Assembly (NCBI RefSeq): GCF_009914755.1
Contig: NC_060946.1
Length of the DNA: 64,000 bases
Strand: one strand, 5' to 3'
Source: the human T2T-CHM13v2.0 reference genome, Homo sapiens
The position numbers and the translations under genes were made by a program. The notes under the pieces were generated by a model that worked only from the letters and a program-made list of their open reading frames with translations, did no database searches and was not told the DNA's origin. Below are positions 1 to 38,585 of this stretch, piece after piece. The stretch's first letter is position 1. Each line of letters opens with the position of its first letter.

Positions 1-201
<201 letters not shown>

Positions 202-261
202 TCAATTATTTTTTCTGACAGGAGTGGAAGAGTATTAAAAAATCAGTAACAGGAGGAATTT

Positions 262-1565
262 TTTTCCCGACCGTCTTTGGCTCCCTCTCTCGCCACCCTT
301 TTTCTTCCTCCATCTACCCCAAAACTTTTTCCCCACCATTTTTTCCCCACTGTCTTTTTGCAAAGCCTTCTATACTTTACCGCTCACTTCCGTTTTCCCC
401 ACCCATCTACCCCAAAACTTGTCCCCACCGTCTTTTCTCCCTCTCTCTCTGGCCACCCTTTTTTTCCGCCTCCCGCTCTCATCATCCTCTTTTGCTCCTT
501 CATCTCCCCAAAAACATTTCCCTCATCTTTTCCCAAAGCCTTCTCCCCACTCCTGCTGCTCGCCACCCTCTCTTTCCCCTTCCGTCTACCCAAAAACTGT
601 TTCCCTATCGTCTTTTTTCCCTTCCTCCTTGCCACCCTTTCCCTTCTCCATCTACCCAAAAACATTTTTCCCGCCGTCTTTTTACAAAGCCTCTTCTCTA
701 CTCCTGCTCACCACGCTCTTTTAACCCATCTACCTCCCCAATTTTTCCCTGCCATCTTTTCACAAAGCCTTCCCCTCTTCCCGCTCTCCCTCTTCTTTCC
801 TCTTTCCTTCTTGCCACCCTCTTTTTGCCCTCCATCTACCCCAAACTATTTTCCTCATCGCCTTTTTCCAGTCCTCTTTCCCCACTTCCTCTGGCCAAAC
901 TTTCTATTCTCCCCCCGCTTGTCACCCTCTTTTCCCCCTCCATCTACCCAAACACTTTTTACCCACTGTCTTTTCTTTCTACACTTTCTTTTCTGCCTAT
1001 CGTCTTTTCGCAAAACCTTTTCTCTTTCCCGCTCGCCACCCTCTTTACCCTTCTCCCACTGGCCACCCTCTTTCCCCCCTCCATCTACCCAAAAGCTTCT
1101 CTCCTCACTGTCTTTTTGCAAAACCTTCTCTCCCTCCTGCTCGCCACTCTCTCTTCCCCCTCCCTCTCTGCAACCTCTTTTCTCCTCCCACTTGCCACCC
1201 TTTTGCCCCCTCCATCTACTCAAAATCTTTTTACCCACAGTCTTCTTTCCCTTTCTTCTCTCCCCACCATATTTTTGCAAACCTTCTCTCTCCTTCCTGC
1301 TCATCCCCGTTCCCCTCTCACGACCCTCTCTTACCCCCTTCCATCTACCCAAAAACTTTTTCCCCACCATCTTTCTGTGAAACCTTCTCTACCTCCTGTT
1401 CACCACCCTGTTTTTCCCCCTCCATCTACCCCCCAATTTTTTTTTCCCCAACATCTTTTCCTCATCGTCTTTATGCAATGCCTTCTCCGGCTCACCATCC
1501 TTTTTTCCTTTTGGCACTAACCACCCTCTTTACCCTTCCATCTATCCCGAAACTATTTTCCCCTT
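262..1565 (+). repeat. Degenerate modular C/T-rich tandem repeat (CCATCTACCCAAAA / GTCTTTT / GCAAAACCTTCT / GCCACCCTC modules)
   Basis: CCATCTACC-type anchor at about 310, 403, 500, 582, 648, 726, 832, 940, 1081, 1212, 1341, 1422 and 1538 (spacing 66-141 bp); + strand strongly G-poor. Confidence 0.9.
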
Positions 1566-1749
1566 CCTACCTTTCCAGCCACACTACAGTGTCTGTCGCC
1601 ACCAACTGCAGGGAGGCCAGCCACGGTGCAGCAGGCTACGGCCTCCAGTCTGTCCTGGTCCTCTAAGCCGGGCTCGGAGCAGCTCGGTGAGCAGACACAG
1701 AAGAACCTGGAATAGCCTGACTCTTCTTCAGCACCATTTATGTACTGAA

Positions 1750-1990
1750 GTTATGCATATGCGGTTCGTGGACTACACGTTCCAGGATTGGATAAGAGAA
1801 AGCCCAGAGGCCTACTCTGATTGGACTTTGTTATCATGTTCTGTTTGGATGAAAGAAAGTCTTAGGAAAACCAATCAGTGTATGAAAATAAAGTCCAATC
1901 AGAGAAGGCCTAGAGATTTTCTCTCACCCAATCAGAACATGTAGTCCAGAAACCATGCGCGTAACCCCATGTGCATGCTGAGGAGGCCTC
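1750..1990. promoter_or_regulatory. BAGE promoter: clustered CCAAT (NF-Y) boxes in both orientations plus ACTACA-type and GCGCATG-type motifs
   Basis: ATTGG at ~1787 and ~1820 (degenerate TTTGG ~1845); CCAATCAG at 1871, 1895 and 1928; GGACTACACGTTCCAG at 1770 with its mirror at 1932-1947; lies directly upstream of exon 1. Confidence 0.7.
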
Positions 1991-2108
1991 ACGCCAGTTT
2001 AGGGTCTCTGGTATCTCCCGCTGAGCTGCTCTGTTCCCGGCTTAGAGGACCAGGAGAAGGGGGAGCTGGAGGCTGGAGCCTGTAACACCGTGGCTCGTCT
2101 CGCTCTGG

Positions 2109-2150
2109 ATGGTGGTGGCAACAGAGATGGCAGCGCGGCTGGAGTGTTAG
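2109..2150 (+). other. Upstream ORF in BAGE 5' UTR (MVVATEMAARLEC*), in-frame ATGs at 2109 and 2127
   Basis: ATG GTG GTG GCA ACA GAG ATG GCA GCG CGG CTG GAG TGT TAG; the second ATG is in strong context (GAGATGG); the stop is 41 nt before the main ATG. Confidence 0.6.
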
Positions 2151-2240
2151 GAGGGTGGCCTGAGCAGTAGGATTGGGGCTGGAGCAGTAAGATGGCAGCC
2201 GGAGCGGTAAGAGTGCAGCCTGAGCGGTAGGAGGGTGGCT
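2141..2240 (+). repeat. 20-bp minisatellite, 5 units (KGAGCRGTARGA...GCY)
   Basis: ggagtgttaggagggtggcc / tgagcagtaggattggggct / ggagcagtaagatggcagcc / ggagcggtaagagtgcagcc / tgagcggtaggagggtggct. Confidence 0.85.
2192..2206 (+). CDS. BAGE: BAGE coding exon 1 (MAAGA)
   Basis: AAG ATG G (strong Kozak); ATG GCA GCC GGA GCG followed by donor gtaaga; phase 0. Confidence 0.88.
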
Positions 2241-2389
2241 GGCAGCTGGAGCTGCTCTTGACCGGCTAGAGGTCTAGGAGAAGGTGGGGACCGTGCCCAA
2301 CACTGGCGGCTGTAGCCTTGGCCACCGCGGCTCGCCTGGCTGCAGTTGGAGGTGGCGACGGAGACTGCATCTCTGTTAGAGTAGTAGAA

Positions 2390-3160
2390 AGGTGGCAGGG
2401 TAGGTGCGCTCTCTGTGGCTGCACTGCCCGCTTGCGGGGTGGTGGGGGAGCGGGTTTGGTGTGCTTTTGGAGCTGCACTGCCTGCCGCAGGGGGCTGGTG
2501 GGTGGCACTATCAGGTGTTGAATTGCTGGCAGTGGGGCAGGTTTGCTGCGCTATCAGAGTCTACACTGCCTAAGGTGGTGGGGGGTTGGAGGCAGGTTGT
2601 GTGTACCGTCGTGCACTGCCAGCAGCGGGTGGTGGGGGATTAGGGGCATTATTAGCTGCTACACTGGCTGATGCAGGGGGCGGGTTTGGTGAGCTATCGT
2701 GAGCTACAATGTCAGCAACAATGCCAACTGGCAGGCAGTCGGGGGTGCTTTAGGGGAGCTGTGAAATGTTGCATTGTCTGTGGGGGAAAGGGGAAGGTGG
2801 GGTCCAGGGGTTTGTTGGGTGCACTACCCCGGGCGTTCACTGCCTGCGACAGGAGCAGACTGGGGGCGCTATCTGGGGCTATACTGCTTGTGGTCCGGGT
2901 GGGGGGCGGGTTTGATGGGGTGCTATTTGGTGCTGCAACACCCATGGTGGGGATAGGTTGTGGACACTATCAAGTGTTACACTGCCAGGAGCAGAGGGGT
3001 CATTTGGGGGCGCTATCAGTGTTACACTGCCTGCAGCAGTCTCTGGGTGTGTTGTGGGCACAATCCGGGGGCTAAGCTTGTGGTGGAGGGGGCAGGTTAG
3101 GGGCGCTATGGGGGGAAGCTGCACTGCTGCTTCCAGCGGCAGGTTGTGGAGGTGGCCACG
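2390..3160 (+). repeat. Highly diverged G-rich tandem repeat (~45-60 bp, GGCGCTATC...CACTGCC...GGGG) in BAGE intron 1
   Basis: Recurring GCRCTATC / CACTGCC motifs separated by G-runs, e.g. ~2506, 2548, 2692, 2820, 2866, 2963, 3009 and 3102. Confidence 0.65.
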
Positions 3161-3675
3161 ACAGTGGTGGCCTCTGAGGAAGGGGCCCTTCTCCTCTTCC
3201 CGGACTCAAGGCTCTAGAGTGTGAACAACTTCTGCTCGTGTTGGAGCGTGGAGGGTGCACAGAGTTTTTGTGGCAATCCTCTGACCACCGCAGGGCCCTC
3301 ACACCCACCATGGTTACTCGGCCCTTGCCCTCTTGCTCTGTGTTGTGGGGACCATCTGGGAGCCCCAGGCATGGAGTAGTGGGCACCACGGGGGCTCAGG
3401 GTCCTGTGGGTGGAGGAGTAAGGAATGGGAACTGGTAATTGGGTTGGGAGGACTGGCTGGGTCTGAGTTTCTGCTGTTCTTGCTCCCCAAGGAGCTGCGG
3501 ACACTGTGGTGTCTCCAGTCCCCACCCCAGGTCAGGAGGCCAGCTCGGTCTAGGAGGAGAGGCTGGACTTTGGAGGGTGGGTGTAAGTGCCTTCGCTGAA
3601 ACTGGCCCCAGCCACCCAGTGGGCAGCATGACAGGGTGAGGCTCTAACACTGCCACTTTCTGCATCCTATTGTAG

Positions 3676-3780
<105 letters not shown>

Positions 3781-4744
3781 TTCATCTTCTGCGGTTGTGG
3801 CAGCCACGGTGATGGAGACGGCAGCTCAACAGGAGCAATAGGAGGGTACCCATGGAGGCCAAGTGGTAGGATCCTTGGAGGGTGGGCAGGTGCATGGAAG
3901 GTGACAGCAGCGCTGATTCCTTTGGTGTCGGCGCAATGGTGGCAGCAGCAGCAAGTCTAGGGGCCAGGAAGGGGAAGTAGGAGAGCTTTGGGGCCCGGCC
4001 TGGCCTGGGGTGGGTAAGAAGCTGCTGGTTCTGTACTGCAGGCCTCAGTGACAGTGGTGGAGGTGCAGCCAGGGCAAGGAGGAGTCCTCCCCCTTCTCCT
4101 GTGGTCTCTGGTCTCTGGAGGGTGCCCTCCTTCTGCTAGCATCTGAGTCAGGTGTGAGTGGCAGCATTGTTTCATTCTTAACAGAATTTAGGGGCTTACT
4201 ATTTGTGTATCTTTTTGTTTTTGGTTGTGATAACCCTTAAGGGACAAAAGGCTTCTTTGGCTGGGTTTTGGTGTCATGGGATCCCCCCATGTAAGACACA
4301 GGGTGCTTTCCTGGCAAGCTGTGTGTTGGAGGGAGTTCCCCAAGGGGAAGAAAGGGAACCTCTCAGGAAGGTGGCTGCTGTGGCAGGTCCCCTGCCTCTG
4401 GGCACCCTTTGGGCCACCTAGTTTCCCCTGTGGAAGTGGGGAGGCTTAGACCAGTATCACTTGTATCATCAAAGAGGCATCCTGGCTGGGCCAGTTGATT
4501 TGACCTTCCCACTTCTTCAGCCCACCTGCCCATGGTGTCACCTGGGGAAACTGGAACCTCAGGCCACAGGGGCAGAGGCTTCTTCGGCAGGCTGATTGCT
4601 ATAGAGGATTCTGTTCTGCCTGCTGCTCAGGAGGGCTTCTATGGCCACCGATCACTGCAACCTCCGCCTCCTGAGATCAAGCGATTCTCCTGTCTTAGCC
4701 TCCCAAGTAGCTGGGATTACAGGCGTGCTACCATGCCCGGCTAA

Positions 4745-5032
<288 letters not shown>

Positions 5033-5097
5033 TGAGCCATCGCGTCTGGCCTCATACATTTTCTAAATGAGTTTTGTAAATTTTTTTTTTTTTTTGA

Positions 5098-5262
<165 letters not shown>

Positions 5263-5729
5263 TAGACAGGGTTTTGCTATGTTGGCTAGGCTGGTCTCGA
5301 ATTCCTGACCTCAGGTGATCCACCTGCCTCGGCCTCCCAAAGTGCTGGGATTACAGGTGTGAGCCACCATGCCCGGCCAATTTTGTAACTTTAAAGAGAA
5401 CAAAAATCCTGAGATGGAAACTTATGTAGAATTTTATTCATAATTGAAGTTAGTTACATTACAGTGGGAATAAAAACTAGAAAGTTACATTGTATCTTCT
5501 AAACATATGTATTTAACATAACTTCACATTTCATTATAGATGGTTCTTTGGAATGACATTTAAAAATTTTGTGGCTGGGCGCAGTGGCTTACACCTGTAA
5601 TCTTAGCACTTTAGGAGGCTGAGGCGGGTGGATTGCTTGAGCTCAGGAGCTCAACAAGTCTGTGCAGCATGACAAAACCCTGTCTCTACAAAAAATATGT
5701 AAATTATCCAGCTATGGTGGCCCTCATTA

Positions 5730-5825
<96 letters not shown>

Positions 5826-6589
5826 CTAGACAAAGTGAGACCCTGTCTCCAAAAAAAGAAATTGTTATAATGAAAGAATAGATTTACATTGTTTGTTTTG
5901 TTTTGTTTTTTTTCTCAGAAGTGTAGAGTTTGTTCTTAGTCTGTCCATCTGTATACAAGCATGAACTGTACAGTCAACTGCCTTGTAGAGAGGGGCTGGT
6001 TTTTGGTTATGTCTTAAATCTTAACTCCTTTTAATTATTCTGAATTTTAGTGGGATTCCTGTATCATTGTAGATTTGGAAAGTATTGAGTAGGAGATGAT
6101 AATCTATAATCAGGGTTCTGAGTTGGTAAGATTTTATAGATCTGAAAAAAGTAATTTCTTGACCTTGGCCTCAATAAGAAAGTCAGAACTTGACCCTTAT
6201 TTACCAGCACCATCCCCCTCCCCCCACAATATTTAAAGTGTTTAAATCATTTATTTTGAAATTCTTATGTGATCCAAGACCACTGTTCACTTAAGCTAGT
6301 TTATTCGTTTATTAAAACAAAAGAAGTAGCCTGCAGTTACGTGTTTCTTTTTTTGTTGTTTGGTGTCAGGAGTAGAATACATTTGGCCAGCTTCATGAGA
6401 GGATTAGAAAGTTGGAGAAGGAAAAATAGAATTGTTTATGGAGCCAGGAGAATAATTGTCTATAATTATAGATGCTTGTTTTGAGGTTTGGAAAAGGTGG
6501 TTTAAAAAACTTTTAAGAAAAACCATGATAAACATCTATAAATATGAGGAAGAAAAATTGGTTGCAACATTTAAAAAAAATTGTTTTGA

Positions 6590-9266: not shown

Positions 9267-9589
<323 letters not shown>

Positions 9590-9786
9590 TGATCTGCCTG
9601 CCTCGGCCTCCCAAAATGCTGGGATTACAGGCATGAGCCACTGCACCTGGCCCACTTAACCAGCATTTTAACATATTCTGAAAATCTGATTGCCAGAATT
9701 TAATGACATTAGAAGAAATTAGAAGAAATTTTTTAAAAAGCTCATAACTATTACGTAGCAAGTATGTTTTCAAAGAACTTGTTTTA

Positions 9787-9984
<198 letters not shown>

Positions 9985-10284
9985 TCAGGTTGAGCTCTGG
10001 AGGTCAAGACTGCAGTGAGTTGAGATGGCGCCACTGCACTTAAGCCTGGGTAACATTAAGCCTGGGTAACAGAGGGAGACTCTGTCTCAAAAAAAAAGAA
10101 ACCCACCCAGTTTGATGAATTAGATACATGTTAAGTGAAACTATTTTTCAGATAGTGTAGAATTAACTTCATTATGTTCACAATTAAATTCATATTAGAC
10201 TGTTACCTATTCTAAGATATTTGATATTAACCCTCAAGGGACATTGGCTACATTTTGTTTTTAACAAAACCTTGTAGTTTATGT

Positions 10285-11715: not shown

Positions 11716-13926
11716 TAATCCAAGTGTCAGATTATTCAATAGCTTCCTGTCTTTTGGTTTGTGGGAAGTTTGATACATCATTTTTTAATGTTTCTTAGCC
11801 CTTTGTTATATTTCATGGATAGTGGGGAAGTGAGTCTGTGACTTGATTGAAATATATTGTACAATGCGTTCATCTGCATCATAGTCACTTGGCTTTTAGT
11901 GGTGAAGTGGAAGCTAAACTTCTCCTTAGGAACAATTGCACTGATTTATTTAACTGATATTGATGACGCTCCATAAAGATAAAAATGTCATTGCATGGAG
12001 TCTTACTTGTGATGTAATTTGTATTTTGGAGAAGTAAATCATAGTATGATTTTAGATGTTTTATTAACATCTAAAATGTTTCAGTTTCTAGAGTAGAATA
12101 TTGTTAAACAAAATGGTAAACACTGTAAACCATAATACTACAGCAGTCCCCTTCAGCTGTCTTCTCCTTCCCAAGAAGAAACCATTACCACCACTACCTC
12201 TTCTCCCTCCAAAACAGAAACCATTACCACCTCCACCTCTAACAACAGAAAAAAAAAACCCAAAAAATAAAAAAACCCTTTTTTGGCCCCACACTGTGGC
12301 TCACACCTGTAATCCCAGCACTTTGGAAGGCCAAGGCAGGATCCTCTTGAGACCAGGAGTTCGAGCCCAGCCTGGGCAACATCAGGAGTCCTCATCTCTA
12401 CTAAGAAAAAAAAAATGGCTGTGTGTTGTGATACACCGATATTCCCAGTTTTTTGGGAGGCTGAGGCAGAAGGATCACTTGAGCCTAGGAGTTCAAGGCT
12501 GCAGTGAGCCATGATTGTACCACTGCACTCCAGCCTGGGCAGCAGAGAAGGACTCTGTCTCAAAAAACAAACAAGAACACCTTTTTAATCTGTTAACTCA
12601 TGGTTTGTTTAAGATTTTCTTTTGGCCATTTTTGATGCCTTTTTTTTGAGACAGATTCTCACTCTATCTCCCAGGCGGGAGTGCAGTGGTGTGATCATGG
12701 CTCATTGCACCCTCGACTTCCCAGAATCAGATGATTCTCCTACCTCAGCCTCCCAAGTAGCTGGGACTGCAGGCACACACCACCATGTCCAGCTAATTTT
12801 TGTATTTTTTGTAGAGACTGGGTTTTGCCATGTTGCCCAGAGTGGTCTTGAACTCCTGGGCTCAAGTGATCCACCCACCTTGGCCTGTCAGAGTGCTGGG
12901 ATTATAGGCATATGCCAGCTGCACCCAGCCCATTTTTGATATCTAAAATCTTTCATCATAGTTTAGTCAGCCATATTTTTCCTAGAATTTTTTTAAAACT
13001 ATTTTGTCTTGCTATCAAGCTATTACTCTGTAGTTTTACATACATTCTTTATTTTAACTAAACTGTTATGAGCAATAATTTGTGATAACTTTTTTTTTTT
13101 TTGAGACAGAGTTTTGCTTTTGTTGCCCAGGTTGGAGTGCAATGGCACATGTGATCTTGGCTCACTGCAACTTCCGCCTCCCAGGTTCAAGCGATTCTCC
13201 TCCCTCAGCCTCCCGAGTAGCTGGAATTACAGCCATGCGCCACCATGCCTAGCTAATTTTTTATTTTTAGTAGAGACTAGGTTTCTCCAAGTTGGTCAGG
13301 CTGGCCTCAAACTCCCAACCTCGGGTGATCTGCCCACCTCGGCCTCCCAAAGTGCTGGGATTACAGGCGTGAGCCACCACGCCCTGCCAATTTGTGATAA
13401 CTTTTTAATCTTTTTGTATTGTGTATTTAAACTTTAAGTTCTTTTCCCTGTCAATTTCTGACAGATTAAACAATAATAATCTTTATATTACTTAAAAGCT
13501 TCTTCTAAAAGGTACAAAGGAAAAAATGGAATGAAAAGTGAACTAGGCAGCGTGTAGTGGCTCCTGCCTGTAATCCCAGCACTTTGGGAGGCCAAGGTGG
13601 GCAGATCACATGGGACCAGGAGTTTGAGACCAGTCCGGCTAACATGGCGAAACCCCGTCTCTACTAACAATACAAAAATTAGCCAGGTGTGGTGGTGCAT
13701 GTCTATAATCCCAGCTACCTGGGAGGCTGAGACATGAGAATCACTTGACCCTAGAAGGTGAAGGTTGCAGTGAGCAGAGATCGAGCCACTACTCCAGCCT
13801 GGGCAGAAATTAAAAAAAAAAAAAAAAAGTGAAGTTGAACTAAATTAGGTCTGGTGAGTTTGAAATGATGGTTGTATATACCTCTAAGATCAGTAAAACC
13901 TAAATCAATCTAGAGAACAGGTGTTA

Positions 13927-16967: not shown

Positions 16968-24945
<7,978 letters not shown>

Positions 24946-37139: not shown

Positions 37140-37549
37140 GTTTGATACTAAACCAAAGCTTGAGAAGTGGTAGTTTCTCAAGTTTTTCAAGTGGTTTGGT
37201 GCAATCTGAAGACTGCAATCCCATCAATGAACTTTATATCTTTACCCTTTAAAATTATAATTTATGGGCTGGGCGCAGTGGTTCACGCCTGTAATCCCAG
37301 CACTTTGGGAGGCTGAAGCGGGTGGATCATGAGGTCAGGAGCTCAAGACCAGCCTGGCCAAGATTGTGAAACCCCGTCTCTACTAAAAATACAAAAATTA
37401 GCCAGGCATTATAGCAGACACCTGCAATCCCACCTATGGGGGAGGCCAAGGCAGAGAATCACTTGAATCCAGGAGGTGGAGGTTGCAATGAGCCGAGATT
37501 GTGCCACTGCACTCCAGCGTGGGTGACAGAGTGAGACTCCATCTCAGAC

Positions 37550-37581
<32 letters not shown>

Positions 37582-38585
37582 TATAATTTATTAGACTACC
37601 TTGCAATTTCAGGGGATCTTTTACCCATATATGATTTTATTAGATTACTAAGTGGTCTTTGGAAAATATTGATTCACTGAGGGATCCAGATATTCCAACT
37701 ATTGATACGGTTGTTTTTGTTTGTTTGTTTTGTTTTGTTTGAGACAGAATCTCACTCTGTTGCCCAGGCTGGAATGCAGTGGTGCGATCTCAGCTCACTT
37801 CCATCTCCTGGGTTCAGGTGATGCTCATGCCTCAGCCTCCTGAGTAGCTGGGACTATAGGCATGCACCACCAGGCCCAGCTAATTTTCATATTTTTAGTA
37901 GAGATGGGGTTTCACTATGTTGGCTAGGCTGGTCTTGAACTCCTGACCTCCAGTGATCCCAAAGTGCTGGGATTACAAGTGTGAGCCACCTTACCTAGTC
38001 CTACATATTTTTAATAAATAACAAAATTCACATTTGTTATAATCGACTGATCTCATCAGAAAAGTCTTTAAGTATTGGAATTAGTTAAGCTTACATTGTT
38101 GGTTGTAAGTCTTTCAAATCTTCTTATTGTCCACTCATGTTCTAAGTTGTTTTCCTTGAAGTGACAGGCTCACTTTATTCATTTTTGAAGAAATATGTCA
38201 GAAAATCAAGTTTTAATAATTGTGGTTTGTTAGTTGTTCTTACATGTAAAAACAGTGTTCCATGAAAAAGCAGTTATTTCAGTTTATAAATCACATGATC
38301 ACAAATTCTTTCCTCAAGAAAAACTATGGTGTAACAATAATTTTATGCTTTATTTCTCGTTTTGTCACATAGATAATTAAAAGATGTGTATTCATGGATC
38401 AAGACTTAAAACATTAAAGATTTTTGCTGCTTCATCAGTGATATTCTCAATGATACTCTACATTATTTTTACTGTAGTTGTAGTGCCAGTTGAGAATGTG
38501 ACAACTTCTAATACAGCTTGGTGCCAGCTGCCTTCAGTTTTGGAAATGCATCAACAGTATTACCCACCATAGCTTTTGCACCATG
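37140..38585 (-). mobile_element. Charlie1-like hAT fossil split by two Alus (~37267-37565 +, ~37710-38000 -)
   Basis: gatactaaaccaaa…gatctcatcagaaaagtcttt…ccttgaagtgacaggctcactt…ttggtgcca…ttacccaccat…gcttttgcacc. Confidence 0.75.

What the first reader, a model, noticed from the sequence alone, without database searches (positions are those of the whole stretch)
1566..2151. BAGE promoter and exon 1 form a ~590 bp ancient palindrome: a mirror-symmetric, potentially bidirectional promoter
Seen: the sequence folds about ~1857. Perfect pairs are 1653-1672/2036-2055 (20/20) and 1815-1829/1890-1904 (15/15), and gapped similarity runs continuously to 1566/2151. Each arm carries its own outward-facing series of CCAAT boxes, a GGACTACA(C/T)GTTC motif resembling the ZNF143-associated ACTACAnnTCCC element, and a GCGCATG-like motif (CpG-decayed to GCATATG on the left arm). 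The left arm (1566-~1716) is therefore an inverted copy of the BAGE 5' UTR. Inference: the promoter arose by fold-back duplication and should have a mirror TSS near ~1715 firing leftwards into the G/A-rich strand of the 1.3 kb repeat. It could also extrude a cruciform, or yield long dsRNA if transcribed through. I do not recall this architecture being described for BAGE.
Basis: partly seen in the sequence, partly recalled or inferred. Interest (0 to 1): 0.8.

Follow-up and report, generated by a model that had tools for sequence, protein, structure and literature searches.

The report
BAGE promoter sits in palindromic repeat
The mirror-image DNA at the start of this BAGE-like cancer-testis gene is real, but it is the core of an old multi-copy human repeat (very probably the one catalogued as REP522) that carried a two-way promoter long before BAGE existed.

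Summary
The palindrome is real. Window 1562-2155 aligns to its own reverse complement (E 2.7e-56; z 35 against shuffles), centred at 1858/1859, with arms 75% identical. It is not specific to BAGE. The T2T genome holds at least 40 loci with this sequence: 10 BAGE-type copies and 30 diverged ones. 36 of the 40 are themselves palindromic. In a tree of 72 arms, all left arms separate from all right arms on a single branch, so the inverted duplication happened once, before the copies dispersed. The shared unit spans window 259-4232, which covers the BAGE promoter, exon 1, intron 1 and exon 2. It joins KMT2C-derived DNA at an Alu (4648-4694). In the family consensus, each arm read outward has three CCAAT boxes, an octamer-like site, a TATA box and an initiator-like site, so the ancestor was a symmetric divergent promoter. 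BAGE uses the right arm, which has lost its TATA. The left arm keeps a weak TATA, which predicts a minus-strand start near 1713; this is untested. Print describes REP522 as "largely palindromic", enriched in cancer-activated promoters and present at the BAGE locus. I could not align the window to a REP522 consensus. Cruciform extrusion is unlikely. Novelty is low.

The parts
259..1561 (+). C/T-rich degenerate tandem array, the left part of the shared repeat unit. A leftward transcript would run into it.
   Evidence: The boundary q259 recurs in most diverged copies. GC skew is -0.75 to -0.81. Direct repeat families D2, D3 and D8 lie here. It is not the mirror image of the right flank (z -0.7; AT skew is negative on both sides).
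1562..1858 (.). Left arm of the palindrome. The outer module is 1562-1708 and the inner CCAAT region is about 1749-1858.
1859..2155 (.). Right arm of the palindrome. It holds the BAGE-side promoter and most of the 5' UTR.
1787..1824 (-). Two intact CCAAT boxes of the left arm (ATTGG at 1787-1791 and 1820-1824). The third, at 1844-1848, reads TTTGG, a change private to this chr22 copy.
   Evidence: The third left box is ATTGG in 9 of 10 BAGE-type copies.
1871..1932 (+). Three CCAAT boxes of the right arm (1871, 1895, 1928; all CCAATCAG), at about -90/-86, -66/-62 and -33/-29 from the RefSeq starts 1961/1957.
   Evidence: These boxes are intact in 30 of 30 right-arm sites of 10 BAGE-type copies. 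Family retention is 0.78-1.0, against a mean of 0.56 for neutral 5-mers.
1770..1782 (+). GGACTACACGTTC motif. Its mirror is at 1935-1947 on the minus strand.
   Evidence: Inverted pair I6. The block is conserved in the family consensus.
1736..1760 (-). Core-promoter remnants of the left arm, read on the minus strand: an octamer-like site with one mismatch (1760-1753) and the weak TATA CATAAAT (1742-1736). The initiator-equivalent A falls at 1713, so the predicted leftward start is about 1713.
   Evidence: positions read. The start site is inferred, not observed.
1954..1978 (+). Right-arm counterpart of the octamer/TATA segment. It reads CATGCGCG where the family has the octamer-like site. The TATA segment is missing, so this arm is about 6 bases shorter here.
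   Evidence: The BAGE and chr5 clades both lack the right-arm TATA.
1957..2206 (+). BAGE3-like exon 1 (RefSeq predicted starts 1957/1961; coding from 2192).
   Evidence: Hub annotation table supplied with the finding.
2125..2242 (+). 20-bp minisatellite that grows out of the outermost unit of the right arm. It holds the BAGE ATG (2192) and the exon-1 splice donor (2207).
   Evidence: TRF period 20 over 2158-2229; D1 and D11. The ATG and GTAAGA are present only in BAGE-type copies and L012, and absent from the 9 more diverged copies inspected. q2158-2222 is missing from chr5 copies.
2232..2399 (+). Second, direct copy of the outer-arm module.
   Evidence: 2001-2159 vs 2232-2396: 114/152 identical. 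Left arm 1562-1698 vs the reverse complement of 2235-2399: 106/132 identical. I3.
2400..4232 (+). Remainder of the repeat unit: G-rich degenerate repeats to about 3130, then a tail that contains BAGE exon 2 (3676-3776).
   Evidence: The boundary q4220-4233 recurs in diverged copies. GC skew is +0.3 to +0.4.
4648..4694 (.). Junction, inside an Alu, between the repeat-bearing segment and KMT2C-derived DNA.
   Evidence: Window 4233-4647 matches C5:181.844 Mb at 93%. Window 4694-14232 matches C7:153.58 Mb at 94%.

Best explanation
Window 1562-2155 is the palindromic core of one copy of a primate repeat or duplicon family, very probably the RepeatMasker family REP522. The two arms arose by a single inverted duplication in the ancestor of the whole family. 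Since then they have diverged independently, with no arm-to-arm homogenisation. Each ancestral arm, read outward from the centre, was a complete Pol II promoter: three CCAATCAG boxes of the NF-Y type, a GGACTACA motif, an octamer-like site, a TATA box and an initiator-like site. The core was therefore a symmetric divergent promoter. A copy whose nearest non-BAGE relative lies in the 5q35.3 subtelomere was joined, at an Alu, to a KMT2C (MLL3) fragment. That copy supplied BAGE with its promoter, exon 1, intron 1 and exon 2. The BAGE start codon and first splice donor came from a lineage-specific 20-bp minisatellite at the outer end of the right arm. BAGE uses the right arm, now without a TATA and probably driven by the CCAAT cluster. 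The promoter is kept silent by DNA methylation and fires when demethylated in testis and cancer.

Shown here: the palindrome, its single origin, the family, the motif layout and the junction. Taken from papers: methylation control, and REP522 as a cancer-activated promoter. Inferred: NF-Y dependence, and a leftward start near 1713 that would give an unspliced, purine-rich RNA.
For: Palindrome statistics.

Family: the query 1562-2155 found 100 matches at 40 loci on 13 chromosomes in the window's own genome. This is a lower bound, since 69 candidates were found and 40 scored. Ten loci are 94-100% identical and 30 are 69-93% identical. Most of these loci also match on the opposite strand. 36 of 40 loci show a self-overlapping palindrome.

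Orientation: flanks fix the orientation independently of the arms in 39 of 40 loci.

Tree: 72 arms from 36 loci. I dropped L012, L017, L034 and L035, which lack an intact pair of arms. Left and right arms fall on either side of one branch (SH-aLRT 97). That is 1 label change, against a shuffled mean of 24.1, and 0 of 500 shuffles were as low. The left and right subtrees are nearly congruent.

Shared unit: window 259-4232.

Consensus: the inner arms are nearly identical between left and right, with three CTGATTGG per arm. TATAWAW occurs in 16/21 left and 10/21 right arms, with weaker YATAAA in 2 and 3 more.

CCAAT retention, in the 18 representative copies that keep the tail, the window's own included: 0.94, 0.94, 0.78 (left) and 1.0, 0.94, 0.78 (right). 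Neutral tail 5-mers average 0.56 (sd 0.22), and only 3.9% reach 0.94.

BAGE-specific parts: minisatellite, ATG and donor. Junction.

[quoted passage not shown] BAGE loci are hypermethylated in normal tissue and hypomethylated in 98% of cancers (abstract start of PMC3757347). hsa-miR-5701 overlaps the Rep522 repeat (bioRxiv 10.1101/2021.12.09.471935).
Against: The name REP522 rests on papers, not on an alignment, because no Repbase or Dfam consensus is available in these tools. The shared unit here is about 4 kb, against the ~1.8 kb quoted for REP522. Only about 0.6 kb of it is palindromic in this copy. The hub's list of the 20 longest masked stretches includes none inside 259-4232.

No expression data could be consulted. 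The RefSeq table shows no minus-strand gene at the left arm. The minus strand from 1715 to 1 has no AATAAA/ATTAAA and no AGGTRAG donor.

Within the 10 BAGE-type copies the inner arms vary about as much as the neighbouring DNA: variable columns are 0.100 (inner left), 0.127 (inner right) and 0.123 (3131-3650). Across diverged copies the window's inner left arm is no better kept than the tail (median identity 0.80 vs 0.79). The inner right arm is only moderately better kept (0.86). High CCAAT retention could partly reflect low mutability of CpG-free sequence.

That the large palindrome at C22:32.586 Mb reflects the same event as the core palindrome is inferred, not shown.
Confidence: 0.75

Rival explanations
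1. One reading: a fold-back duplication at the BAGE locus itself created the BAGE promoter, so the palindrome is a BAGE-specific invention.
For: The arms are truly homologous. All 10 BAGE-type copies share the structure.
Against: Thirty non-BAGE loci carry the same core, and 26 of them have both arms. Left and right arms of all 36 usable loci split on one branch, so the arms had already diverged before the BAGE clade arose. BAGE-type copies are 94-100% identical to each other, while the arms are only 75% identical.
Confidence: 0.02
2. The ancestral palindrome was not a fold-back of one sequence. It arose by head-to-head juxtaposition of two copies of an older promoter-bearing element, the way inverted Alu pairs make palindromes. 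It was then copied as a unit.
For: Six other 600-800 bp palindromes in this window arose this way, from Alu pairs. The outer-arm module exists as three copies in the window (one inverted, two direct) at 75-80% pairwise identity. This shows that the module could be duplicated separately.
Against: No locus with a lone, unpaired full arm in a different context turned up among the 40 loci. The four without a palindrome look like deletions of the same unit. The inner arms of the left and right consensus are nearly identical right up to the centre, as expected for a fold-back. The copy at C22:32.586 Mb is palindromic over about 3 kb per arm, with an Alu inside the arms. That fits a large inverted duplication.
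Confidence: 0.12
3. The symmetry is kept because the hairpin itself is the functional unit, either as an RNA (a miRNA or endo-siRNA precursor such as the miR-5701 annotation) or as a DNA cruciform.
For: As RNA, 1562-2155 folds into one long hairpin of -339.5 kcal/mol, z -17.2. The central 148 nt folded as ssDNA give -35.2 kcal/mol, z -8.4. A preprint places hsa-miR-5701 in Rep522. The inner arms are the best-conserved part.
Against: The arms have drifted to 75% identity with 26 gap columns, with no sign of homogenisation in the arm tree. Rfam gives only sub-threshold generic hairpin hits, best 31.9 bits against a gathering score of 100 in the window and 47.8 against 100 in a chr15 copy. The annotated BAGE transcripts start inside the right arm and cannot form the hairpin. 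The same preprint treats such repeat-borne miRNAs as doubtful. What is conserved is the CCAAT boxes, not the pairing.
Confidence: 0.04
4. The core is a non-autonomous DNA transposon (MITE-like) with long terminal inverted repeats that inserted upstream of BAGE.
For: The element is palindromic and multi-copy.
Against: Homology among copies runs straight through both ends of the palindrome into shared flanks, from window 259 to 4232. The inverted repeat ends are therefore not element ends. Several copies also share flanking Alus, and the loci lie near centromeres and chromosome ends. Both facts fit spread by segmental duplication. I did not search for target-site duplications.
Confidence: 0.02

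Closest known systems
REP522 (RepeatMasker/Repbase repeat, listed as Satellite/telo or unclassified interspersed)
   Same: The published description fits: 'largely palindromic', interspersed, enriched among cancer-activated CAGE promoters (passage), and reported at the BAGE locus (passage). The family found here is palindromic in 36 of 40 loci. It lies mostly near centromeres and chromosome ends. It carries promoter motifs.
   Different: Identity with the REP522 consensus could not be tested. The unit shared among copies here is about 4 kb including variable tandem arrays, against the quoted ~1.8 kb. In this copy only the 594-bp core is palindromic.
Divergent histone H2A-H2B promoters
   Same: The layout is similar. 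Four human H2A-H2B intergenic regions fetched here show central CCAAT boxes. Three have ATTTGCAT, and in one of them (L043) it lies just upstream of a TATA box. This matches the outward-read family arm.
   Different: No sequence homology. All 32 arm-versus-promoter local alignments fall within the range of mononucleotide shuffles (best 125 against a shuffle maximum of 128). In the histone case the two halves serve different genes and are not inverted copies of each other. The repeat has no histone coding sequence.
LTR12-type repeat-derived promoters (from my own knowledge, not from a call)
   Same: These are repeat-borne, CCAAT-rich promoters said to be NF-Y-dependent. They are silenced epigenetically in somatic cells and active in germline and cancer, and they donate first exons to host genes.
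   Different: LTR12 is a retroviral LTR, unidirectional and not palindromic. The present family shows no LTR features, and no relationship was tested.
Large inverted repeats holding cancer-testis genes on the X chromosome (from my own knowledge, not from a call)
   Same: Cancer-testis genes are associated with palindromic DNA.
   Different: In those cases the arms are tens of kilobases, nearly identical, kept alike by gene conversion, and hold whole genes. Here the arms are about 0.3 kb, 75% identical and not homogenised, and the palindrome lies within the promoter.
Inverted Alu pairs
   Same: They produce palindromes of the same size and arm identity. Six occur in this window.
   Different: The BAGE core has no Alu similarity (0 of 92 Alu hits). 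The same paired structure recurs at 36 loci.

Membership tests
REP522 repeat family | Sequence match to the curated REP522 consensus or profile | not testable with these tools
   No Repbase or Dfam library is offered. Rfam holds no such family. The name rests on passages.
REP522 repeat family | Largely palindromic unit | tested here: met
   The window core is palindromic at E 2.7e-56. 36 of 40 family loci have a self-overlapping palindrome. One locus is palindromic over about 3 kb per arm.
REP522 repeat family | Unit of about 1.8 kb | tested here: inconclusive
   Homology among copies spans window 259-4232, about 4 kb including length-variable tandem arrays. Which part the curated consensus covers is unknown.
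REP522 repeat family | Multi-copy, dispersed, enriched near chromosome ends or centromeres | tested here: met
   At least 40 loci on chromosomes 2, 5, 7, 9, 10, 13, 14, 15, 17, 18, 20, 21 and 22. Most, by their coordinates, lie near centromeres, on acrocentric short arms or at the 5q end. The regional labels are my reading of the coordinates.
REP522 repeat family | Reported presence at BAGE and promoter activity in cancer | not testable with these tools
   Literature only: passages in PMC3560060 and PMC4896275. The primary paper (Kaczkowski 2016, Cancer Res) is not held.
Bidirectional (divergent) promoter | Two outward-facing core promoters within about 1 kb | tested here: inconclusive
   Met for the family consensus and many copies: TATAWAW in 16/21 left and 10/21 right arms. 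In the window the left arm has only a weak CATAAAT and the right arm has none.
Bidirectional (divergent) promoter | Transcripts initiating on both strands | not testable with these tools
   No CAGE or RNA data are available. The RefSeq table lists no minus-strand gene at 1-1750.
NF-Y-type CCAAT promoter | CCAAT pentamers with favoured flanks about 60-100 bp upstream of the start site | tested here: met
   CCAATCAG at 1871 and 1895 lies 62-90 bp upstream of the RefSeq starts 1957/1961. The flank preference is established knowledge, recalled.
NF-Y-type CCAAT promoter | NF-Y occupancy and dependence | not testable with these tools
   Needs ChIP and mutation assays. The only indirect support is above-neutral retention of the boxes.
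Cruciform-forming palindrome | Near-perfect arms with a very short spacer | tested here: not met
   Arm identity is 75% with 26 gap columns. The perfect runs of 20 and 15 bp are separated by 363 and 60 nt. The tip of the predicted ssDNA hairpin is poorly paired.
MITE-like DNA transposon | Element ends coincide with the ends of the inverted repeat | tested here: not met
   Inter-copy homology continues across 1562 and 2155 into shared flanks. Target-site duplications were not searched for.
Histone H2A-H2B divergent promoter (by descent) | Detectable sequence homology to H2A-H2B intergenic regions | tested here: not met
   All 32 comparisons (8 arms x 4 promoters) fall within the shuffle range.

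The most novel reading that the evidence does not exclude
The palindromic core of this repeat family is a selection-maintained, symmetric two-way Pol II promoter cassette: three NF-Y boxes, an octamer-like site and a TATA box on each side. Segmental duplication has spread it through pericentromeric and subtelomeric DNA, where it can seed new germline or cancer-expressed genes. BAGE is one such birth, with its ORF start made by a minisatellite at the arm's edge. In BAGE loci the unused left arm keeps TATA- and octamer-like elements that the sense arm has lost. It still fires when demethylated, giving a roughly 1.4-kb purine-rich antisense RNA from about 1713.
Probability: 0.3. Interest if true: 0.55.

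Novelty: already known. Interest (0 to 1): 0.3.

Why it matters
This result moves the question from BAGE to a repeat family. The mirror symmetry is not a quirk of one cancer-testis promoter. It is the inherited design of a multi-copy element whose copies are reported to switch on in many cancers and at the 8-cell stage. That explains why BAGE has a methylation-gated promoter although the rest of the gene derives from KMT2C introns and exons. It also shows how a gene can be assembled from a portable unit of promoter plus first exons, a minisatellite-born start codon, and a captured gene fragment. For practice, reads, methylation assays or CAGE tags from this region are multi-mapping across at least 10 near-identical and about 30 diverged loci. 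They should be interpreted at family level. The fine anatomy may be worth a short note: six CCAAT boxes, paired octamer/TATA elements, and a single origin for the arms. No paper in the searchable library holds both 'REP522' and 'CCAAT'.

Tried and rejected
(1) Extending the palindrome into the flanks. The C/T-rich array on the left and the G-rich repeats on the right are not mirror images (z 0.1 and -0.7; AT skew is negative on both sides).

(2) Another copy within the 64-kb window: none found.

(3) Rfam. Only the Alu/SRP match and sub-threshold generic miRNA-hairpin hits appeared at the palindrome centre, both in the window and in the chr15, chr22 and chr5 copies. No mir-5701 family appeared.

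(4) Descent from histone H2A-H2B promoters: no alignment above mononucleotide shuffles.

(5) Extra constraint on the inner arms within the 10 BAGE-type copies: no signal, and power is low.

(6) Linking the core to hsa-miR-5701 by sequence. I recall a resemblance between the mature miRNA and the inner arms near the third CCAAT box. It stays an untested lead. The supplementary tables of PMC9365560 may hold that sequence.

(7) Primary papers not held: Ruault 2002 and 2003, Grunau 2006 and Kaczkowski 2016. My statement that BAGE arose from a 7q36 MLL3 fragment by juxtacentromeric reshuffling is supported here and by a citing passage.

(8) The search of earlier findings was not open.

(9) Literature checks for prior description. 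'BAGE'+'promoter'+'palindrome' returned 12 papers, none relevant by title. 'BAGE'+'bidirectional promoter' returned 28 papers. The one relevant paper uses the phrase for DSCR4/8. 'REP522'+'CCAAT' returned 0. 'REP522'+'bidirectional' returned 2: one is that DSCR4/8 paper. The other is a multi-abstract meeting volume, where I did not look up 'bidirectional'.

(10) No structure, protein or complex tools were used, because the feature is non-coding.
Full report
OBSERVATION. The reported palindrome exists, at the stated place, and is far beyond chance. blastn of the window against itself returns one continuous minus-strand self-match, 1562-2155 vs 2155-1562 (68.8% identity over 619 columns, 50 gap positions, E 2.7e-56). 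No other copy occurs in the 64 kb. A Smith-Waterman comparison of 1566-1859 with the reverse complement of 1860-2151 scores 638. Two hundred dinucleotide-preserving shuffles gave 98.7 +/- 15.6, so z is 34.6. The inner and outer halves are each significant (z 19.6 and 19.5). The same-strand control scores 126. A global arm alignment has 284 aligned columns, 213 of them identical (75%), with 38 transitions, 33 transversions and 26 gap columns. The Kimura distance is 0.31, or 0.27 without CpG columns. The symmetry does not continue past 1562 and 2155 (z 0.1 and -0.7). The left flank is C/T-rich and the right flank G-rich, but AT skew is negative on both sides, so the flanks are not mirror images. 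As a base-rate control, the window holds seven self-overlapping palindromes of 600-800 bp. The other six are inverted Alu pairs, while 1562-2155 has none of the window's 92 Alu-like hits.

THE PALINDROME BELONGS TO A REPEAT FAMILY, NOT TO BAGE. The window's own genome (T2T human; the window is C22:11098001-11162000) was searched with 1562-2155. It returned 100 matches at 40 loci on 13 chromosomes. This is a lower bound, since 69 candidates were found and 40 scored. Ten loci are BAGE-type (94-100% identity; chromosomes 22, 13, 21, 15, 9 and 18). Thirty are more diverged (69-93%). Most of these loci also match on the opposite strand. I fetched all 40. Thirty-six show their own self-overlapping palindrome. 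The exceptions are L012, which has a central deletion, and L017, L034 and L035, which keep one arm. Homology between the window and the diverged copies runs well beyond the palindrome. It starts repeatedly at window 259 and ends repeatedly at 4220-4233. The shared unit therefore comprises the C/T-rich array, the palindrome, the G-rich repeats and a tail. It contains the BAGE promoter, exon 1, intron 1 and exon 2 (3676-3776).

SINGLE ORIGIN OF THE ARMS. The flanks fix the orientation of 39 of 40 loci independently of the arms. I extracted left and right arms from the 36 loci that keep an intact pair of arms, dropping L012, L017, L034 and L035. I reverse-complemented the right arms and built a maximum-likelihood tree of the 72 sequences. 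All 36 left arms and all 36 right arms fall on opposite sides of a single branch (SH-aLRT 97). That is one label change, against a shuffled mean of 24.1, and 0 of 500 shuffles were as low. The two subtrees have nearly the same shape. The inverted duplication therefore happened once, before the copies dispersed, and the arms of a locus have not been homogenised against each other since. The branch separating left from right is short compared with later branches. This suggests the ancestor was a near-perfect palindrome shortly before dispersal. [10 protein letters not shown] with that, the inner ~150 bp of the left and right consensus sequences are almost identical.

AGE (inference). BAGE-type copies differ from each other by up to about 6%. 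The window's tail is about 79-80% identical to the diverged copies, and the arms are 75% identical to each other. The palindrome is therefore far older than the BAGE family. One early-branching locus, C22:32.586 Mb, is palindromic over about 3.0-3.4 kb on each side. It carries the 'right-flank' sequence in both arms, and has an Alu inside the arms. Arm identity there is 82-91% in the outer part. If that large palindrome reflects the same event, which is an inference, the duplication postdates an Alu insertion and so is of primate age. The BAGE-type unit would then be a derivative whose outer left arm was replaced by the C/T-rich array.

WHAT THE ARMS ENCODE. I read 21 representative copies outward from the centre. 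The family consensus of each arm runs as follows: three CCAATCAG-type boxes, a GGACTACATGTTC block, an octamer-like ATTTGCAT, about 8 bases, a TATATAAAG-type TATA box, then GCATGCTGAG and an initiator-like TCATTTC. A TATAWAW match is present in 16 of 21 left arms and 10 of 21 right arms. A weaker YATAAA is present in 2 and 3 more, and none in 3 and 8. The ancestral core was thus a symmetric pair of outward-facing Pol II promoters sharing a central cluster of six CCAAT boxes.

The boxes are kept better than neutral sequence in the same copies. In the 18 representative copies that keep the tail, the window's own included, box retention is 0.94, 0.94 and 0.78 on the left and 1.0, 0.94 and 0.78 on the right. 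Five-mers of the tail average 0.56 (sd 0.22), and only 3.9% of them reach 0.94. Mean column conservation is 0.90-0.91 for the inner arms, 0.86 for the tail and 0.74-0.76 for the outer arms. This fits purifying selection on the CCAAT cluster. Lower mutability of CpG-free sequence is a possible contributor.

THIS COPY. The right arm has three intact boxes (1871, 1895, 1928). Two of them lie 62-90 bp upstream of the RefSeq starts at 1957/1961. In the BAGE and chr5 clades the right arm has lost the TATA segment. Where the family has the octamer-like site, it reads CATGCGCG in 6 of the 10 BAGE-type copies. The left arm keeps two intact boxes. Its third reads TTTGG, a change private to this chr22 copy, since 9 of 10 BAGE-type copies have ATTGG. 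On the minus strand the left arm also keeps a one-mismatch octamer (1760-1753) and a weak TATA, CATAAAT (1742-1736). The position equivalent to the consensus initiator A is 1713, 27 bases downstream of the TATA (positions read). The mirror image of the RefSeq starts is 1758/1754. A leftward transcript would be 77% purine. It would meet no AATAAA/ATTAAA and no strong donor before the window's start.

HOW BAGE WAS ASSEMBLED. The outermost unit of the right arm has expanded into a 20-bp minisatellite (2125-2242). The BAGE ATG (2192) and the exon-1 donor (2207) lie in this array. The ATG and GTAAGA occur only in BAGE-type copies and in L012 (5q35.3 end). The 9 more diverged copies inspected have no such array and lack the ATG; only one (L014) shows a GTAAGA at all. 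Chr5 copies lack window 2159-2217. Window 4233-4647 still matches C5:181.844 Mb at 93%. From 4694 onward the window matches C7:153.58 Mb, the KMT2C region, at 94%. The junction thus lies within the Alu masked at 4648-5046. This fits the published account that BAGE arose by juxtacentromeric reshuffling of an MLL3 fragment. I saw only a citing passage for that account, because the primary papers are not held. The outer-arm module occurs three times in the window: 1562-1708 inverted, 2001-2159, and 2232-2399, at 75-80% pairwise identity.

COMPARISON WITH WHAT IS KNOWN. [quoted passage not shown] Ward et al. [quoted passage not shown] It is marked by H3K9me3 in human liver, and by H3K4me3 and Pol II in Tc1 mouse liver (passage). 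Other passages place REP522 mostly in telomeric regions with a burst of expression at the 8-cell stage. They also place hsa-miR-5701 inside Rep522, and cite REP522-driven cancer-specific lncRNAs. [quoted passage not shown] BAGE genes are expressed only in testis and cancer (passage). The family found here fits every descriptive feature of REP522, but I could not align it to the curated consensus. In addition, the shared unit is about 4 kb rather than 1.8 kb. I put the identification at about 0.8.

The motif layout resembles divergent H2A-H2B promoters. Four of these, fetched from the genome, show central CCAAT boxes. Three have ATTTGCAT, and in one it lies just upstream of a TATA box. There is no sequence homology: all 32 comparisons fall within the shuffle range.

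STRUCTURE-BASED IDEAS. As RNA the whole region would fold into one long imperfect hairpin (-339.5 kcal/mol, z -17.2). As single-stranded DNA the central 148 nt fold at -35.2 kcal/mol (z -8.4). The annotated transcripts begin inside the right arm, so the hairpin needs read-through from upstream. With 75% arm identity, 26 gap columns and a weakly paired tip, cruciform extrusion from duplex DNA is unlikely; this is an inference from the known requirements for extrusion. Rfam offers only sub-threshold generic hairpin matches.

WHAT COUNTS AGAINST MY READING. The name REP522 is not verified by alignment. There is no expression evidence for either direction beyond the RefSeq models. No minus-strand gene is annotated at the left arm. 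Within the BAGE clade the inner arms vary about as much as neighbouring DNA (0.100 and 0.127 variable columns against 0.123). The window's inner left arm is no better conserved against diverged copies than the tail (0.80 against 0.79). Whether the ancestral event was a true fold-back or a head-to-head juxtaposition of two older elements cannot be decided from one genome.

VERDICT. It is wrong in place and time: the structure is inherited from a multi-copy repeat and was not created at BAGE. Palindromy and cancer-linked promoter activity are already in print for the repeat, and its presence at BAGE has been noted. What may be new is the fine anatomy and the single-origin result. No paper in the searchable library holds both 'REP522' and 'CCAAT'. 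The two that hold 'REP522' and 'bidirectional' are the DSCR4/8 paper and a meeting volume that I did not check for the word. Interest is modest.

Noticed in passing
window 2125-2242: A 20-bp minisatellite at the outer edge of the right arm holds the BAGE start codon (2192) and the exon-1 donor (2207). Unit number varies among BAGE-type copies. The 9 more diverged copies inspected have no such array and lack the ATG; only one (L014) shows a GTAAGA. The coding start of BAGE thus looks minisatellite-born.
   Followed up: partly
window 2127-2150: The first minisatellite unit carries its own ATG, followed by six codons and a TAG (read directly). This is an upstream mini-ORF in the annotated 5' UTR.
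   Followed up: no
window 4648-4694: The breakpoint between the repeat-bearing segment (93% to C5:181.844 Mb) and the KMT2C-derived segment (94% to C7:153.58 Mb) lies inside an Alu. This suggests an Alu-mediated join. Some other BAGE copies have about 2 kb extra here, with q462-820 duplicated.
   Followed up: partly
L041/L042 (G000:C22:32575945-32595944): This is a large old palindrome of the same family, in what by its coordinate should be euchromatic 22q. The arms reach about 3.0-3.4 kb from the centre and are 82-91% identical in their outer part. An Alu lies inside both arms. It may preserve the ancestral form of the element.
   Followed up: partly
L012 (G000:C5:181838500-181844015): This is the closest non-BAGE relative of the BAGE 5' module (87-93% identity from window 1 to 4647). 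It lies near the end of 5q. It lacks window-equivalent 1796-1864, which is a deletion at the palindrome centre, and has a longer 20-bp array.
   Followed up: partly
window 1844-1848: The third left-arm CCAAT box is mutated (TTTGG) only in this chr22 copy; 9 of 10 BAGE-type copies read ATTGG here. One chr9 copy (L029) has a different left box mutated. All 30 right-arm boxes are intact.
   Followed up: yes
window 5084-5861, 9376-10055, 12306-12908, 13088-13830, 17387-18012, 37278-37989: Six inverted Alu pairs form palindromes of 600-800 bp, with arm identities of 67-76%.
   Followed up: yes
L023 2633-2766 and L032 2570-2700 (chr15 copies): The palindrome centre of the chr15 copies gives the strongest generic miRNA-hairpin scores (up to 47.8 bits, below the gathering score of 100). 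From memory, the hsa-mir-5701 genes lie in this part of chr15. This was not tested.
   Followed up: no
window 1562-1748 and 1969-2155 vs 3300-4232: The outer arms evolve faster than the presumably neutral tail. Median identity to diverged copies is 0.72-0.74 against 0.79, and the gap persists when CpG/TpG/CpA columns are excluded. The cause is not established.
   Followed up: no
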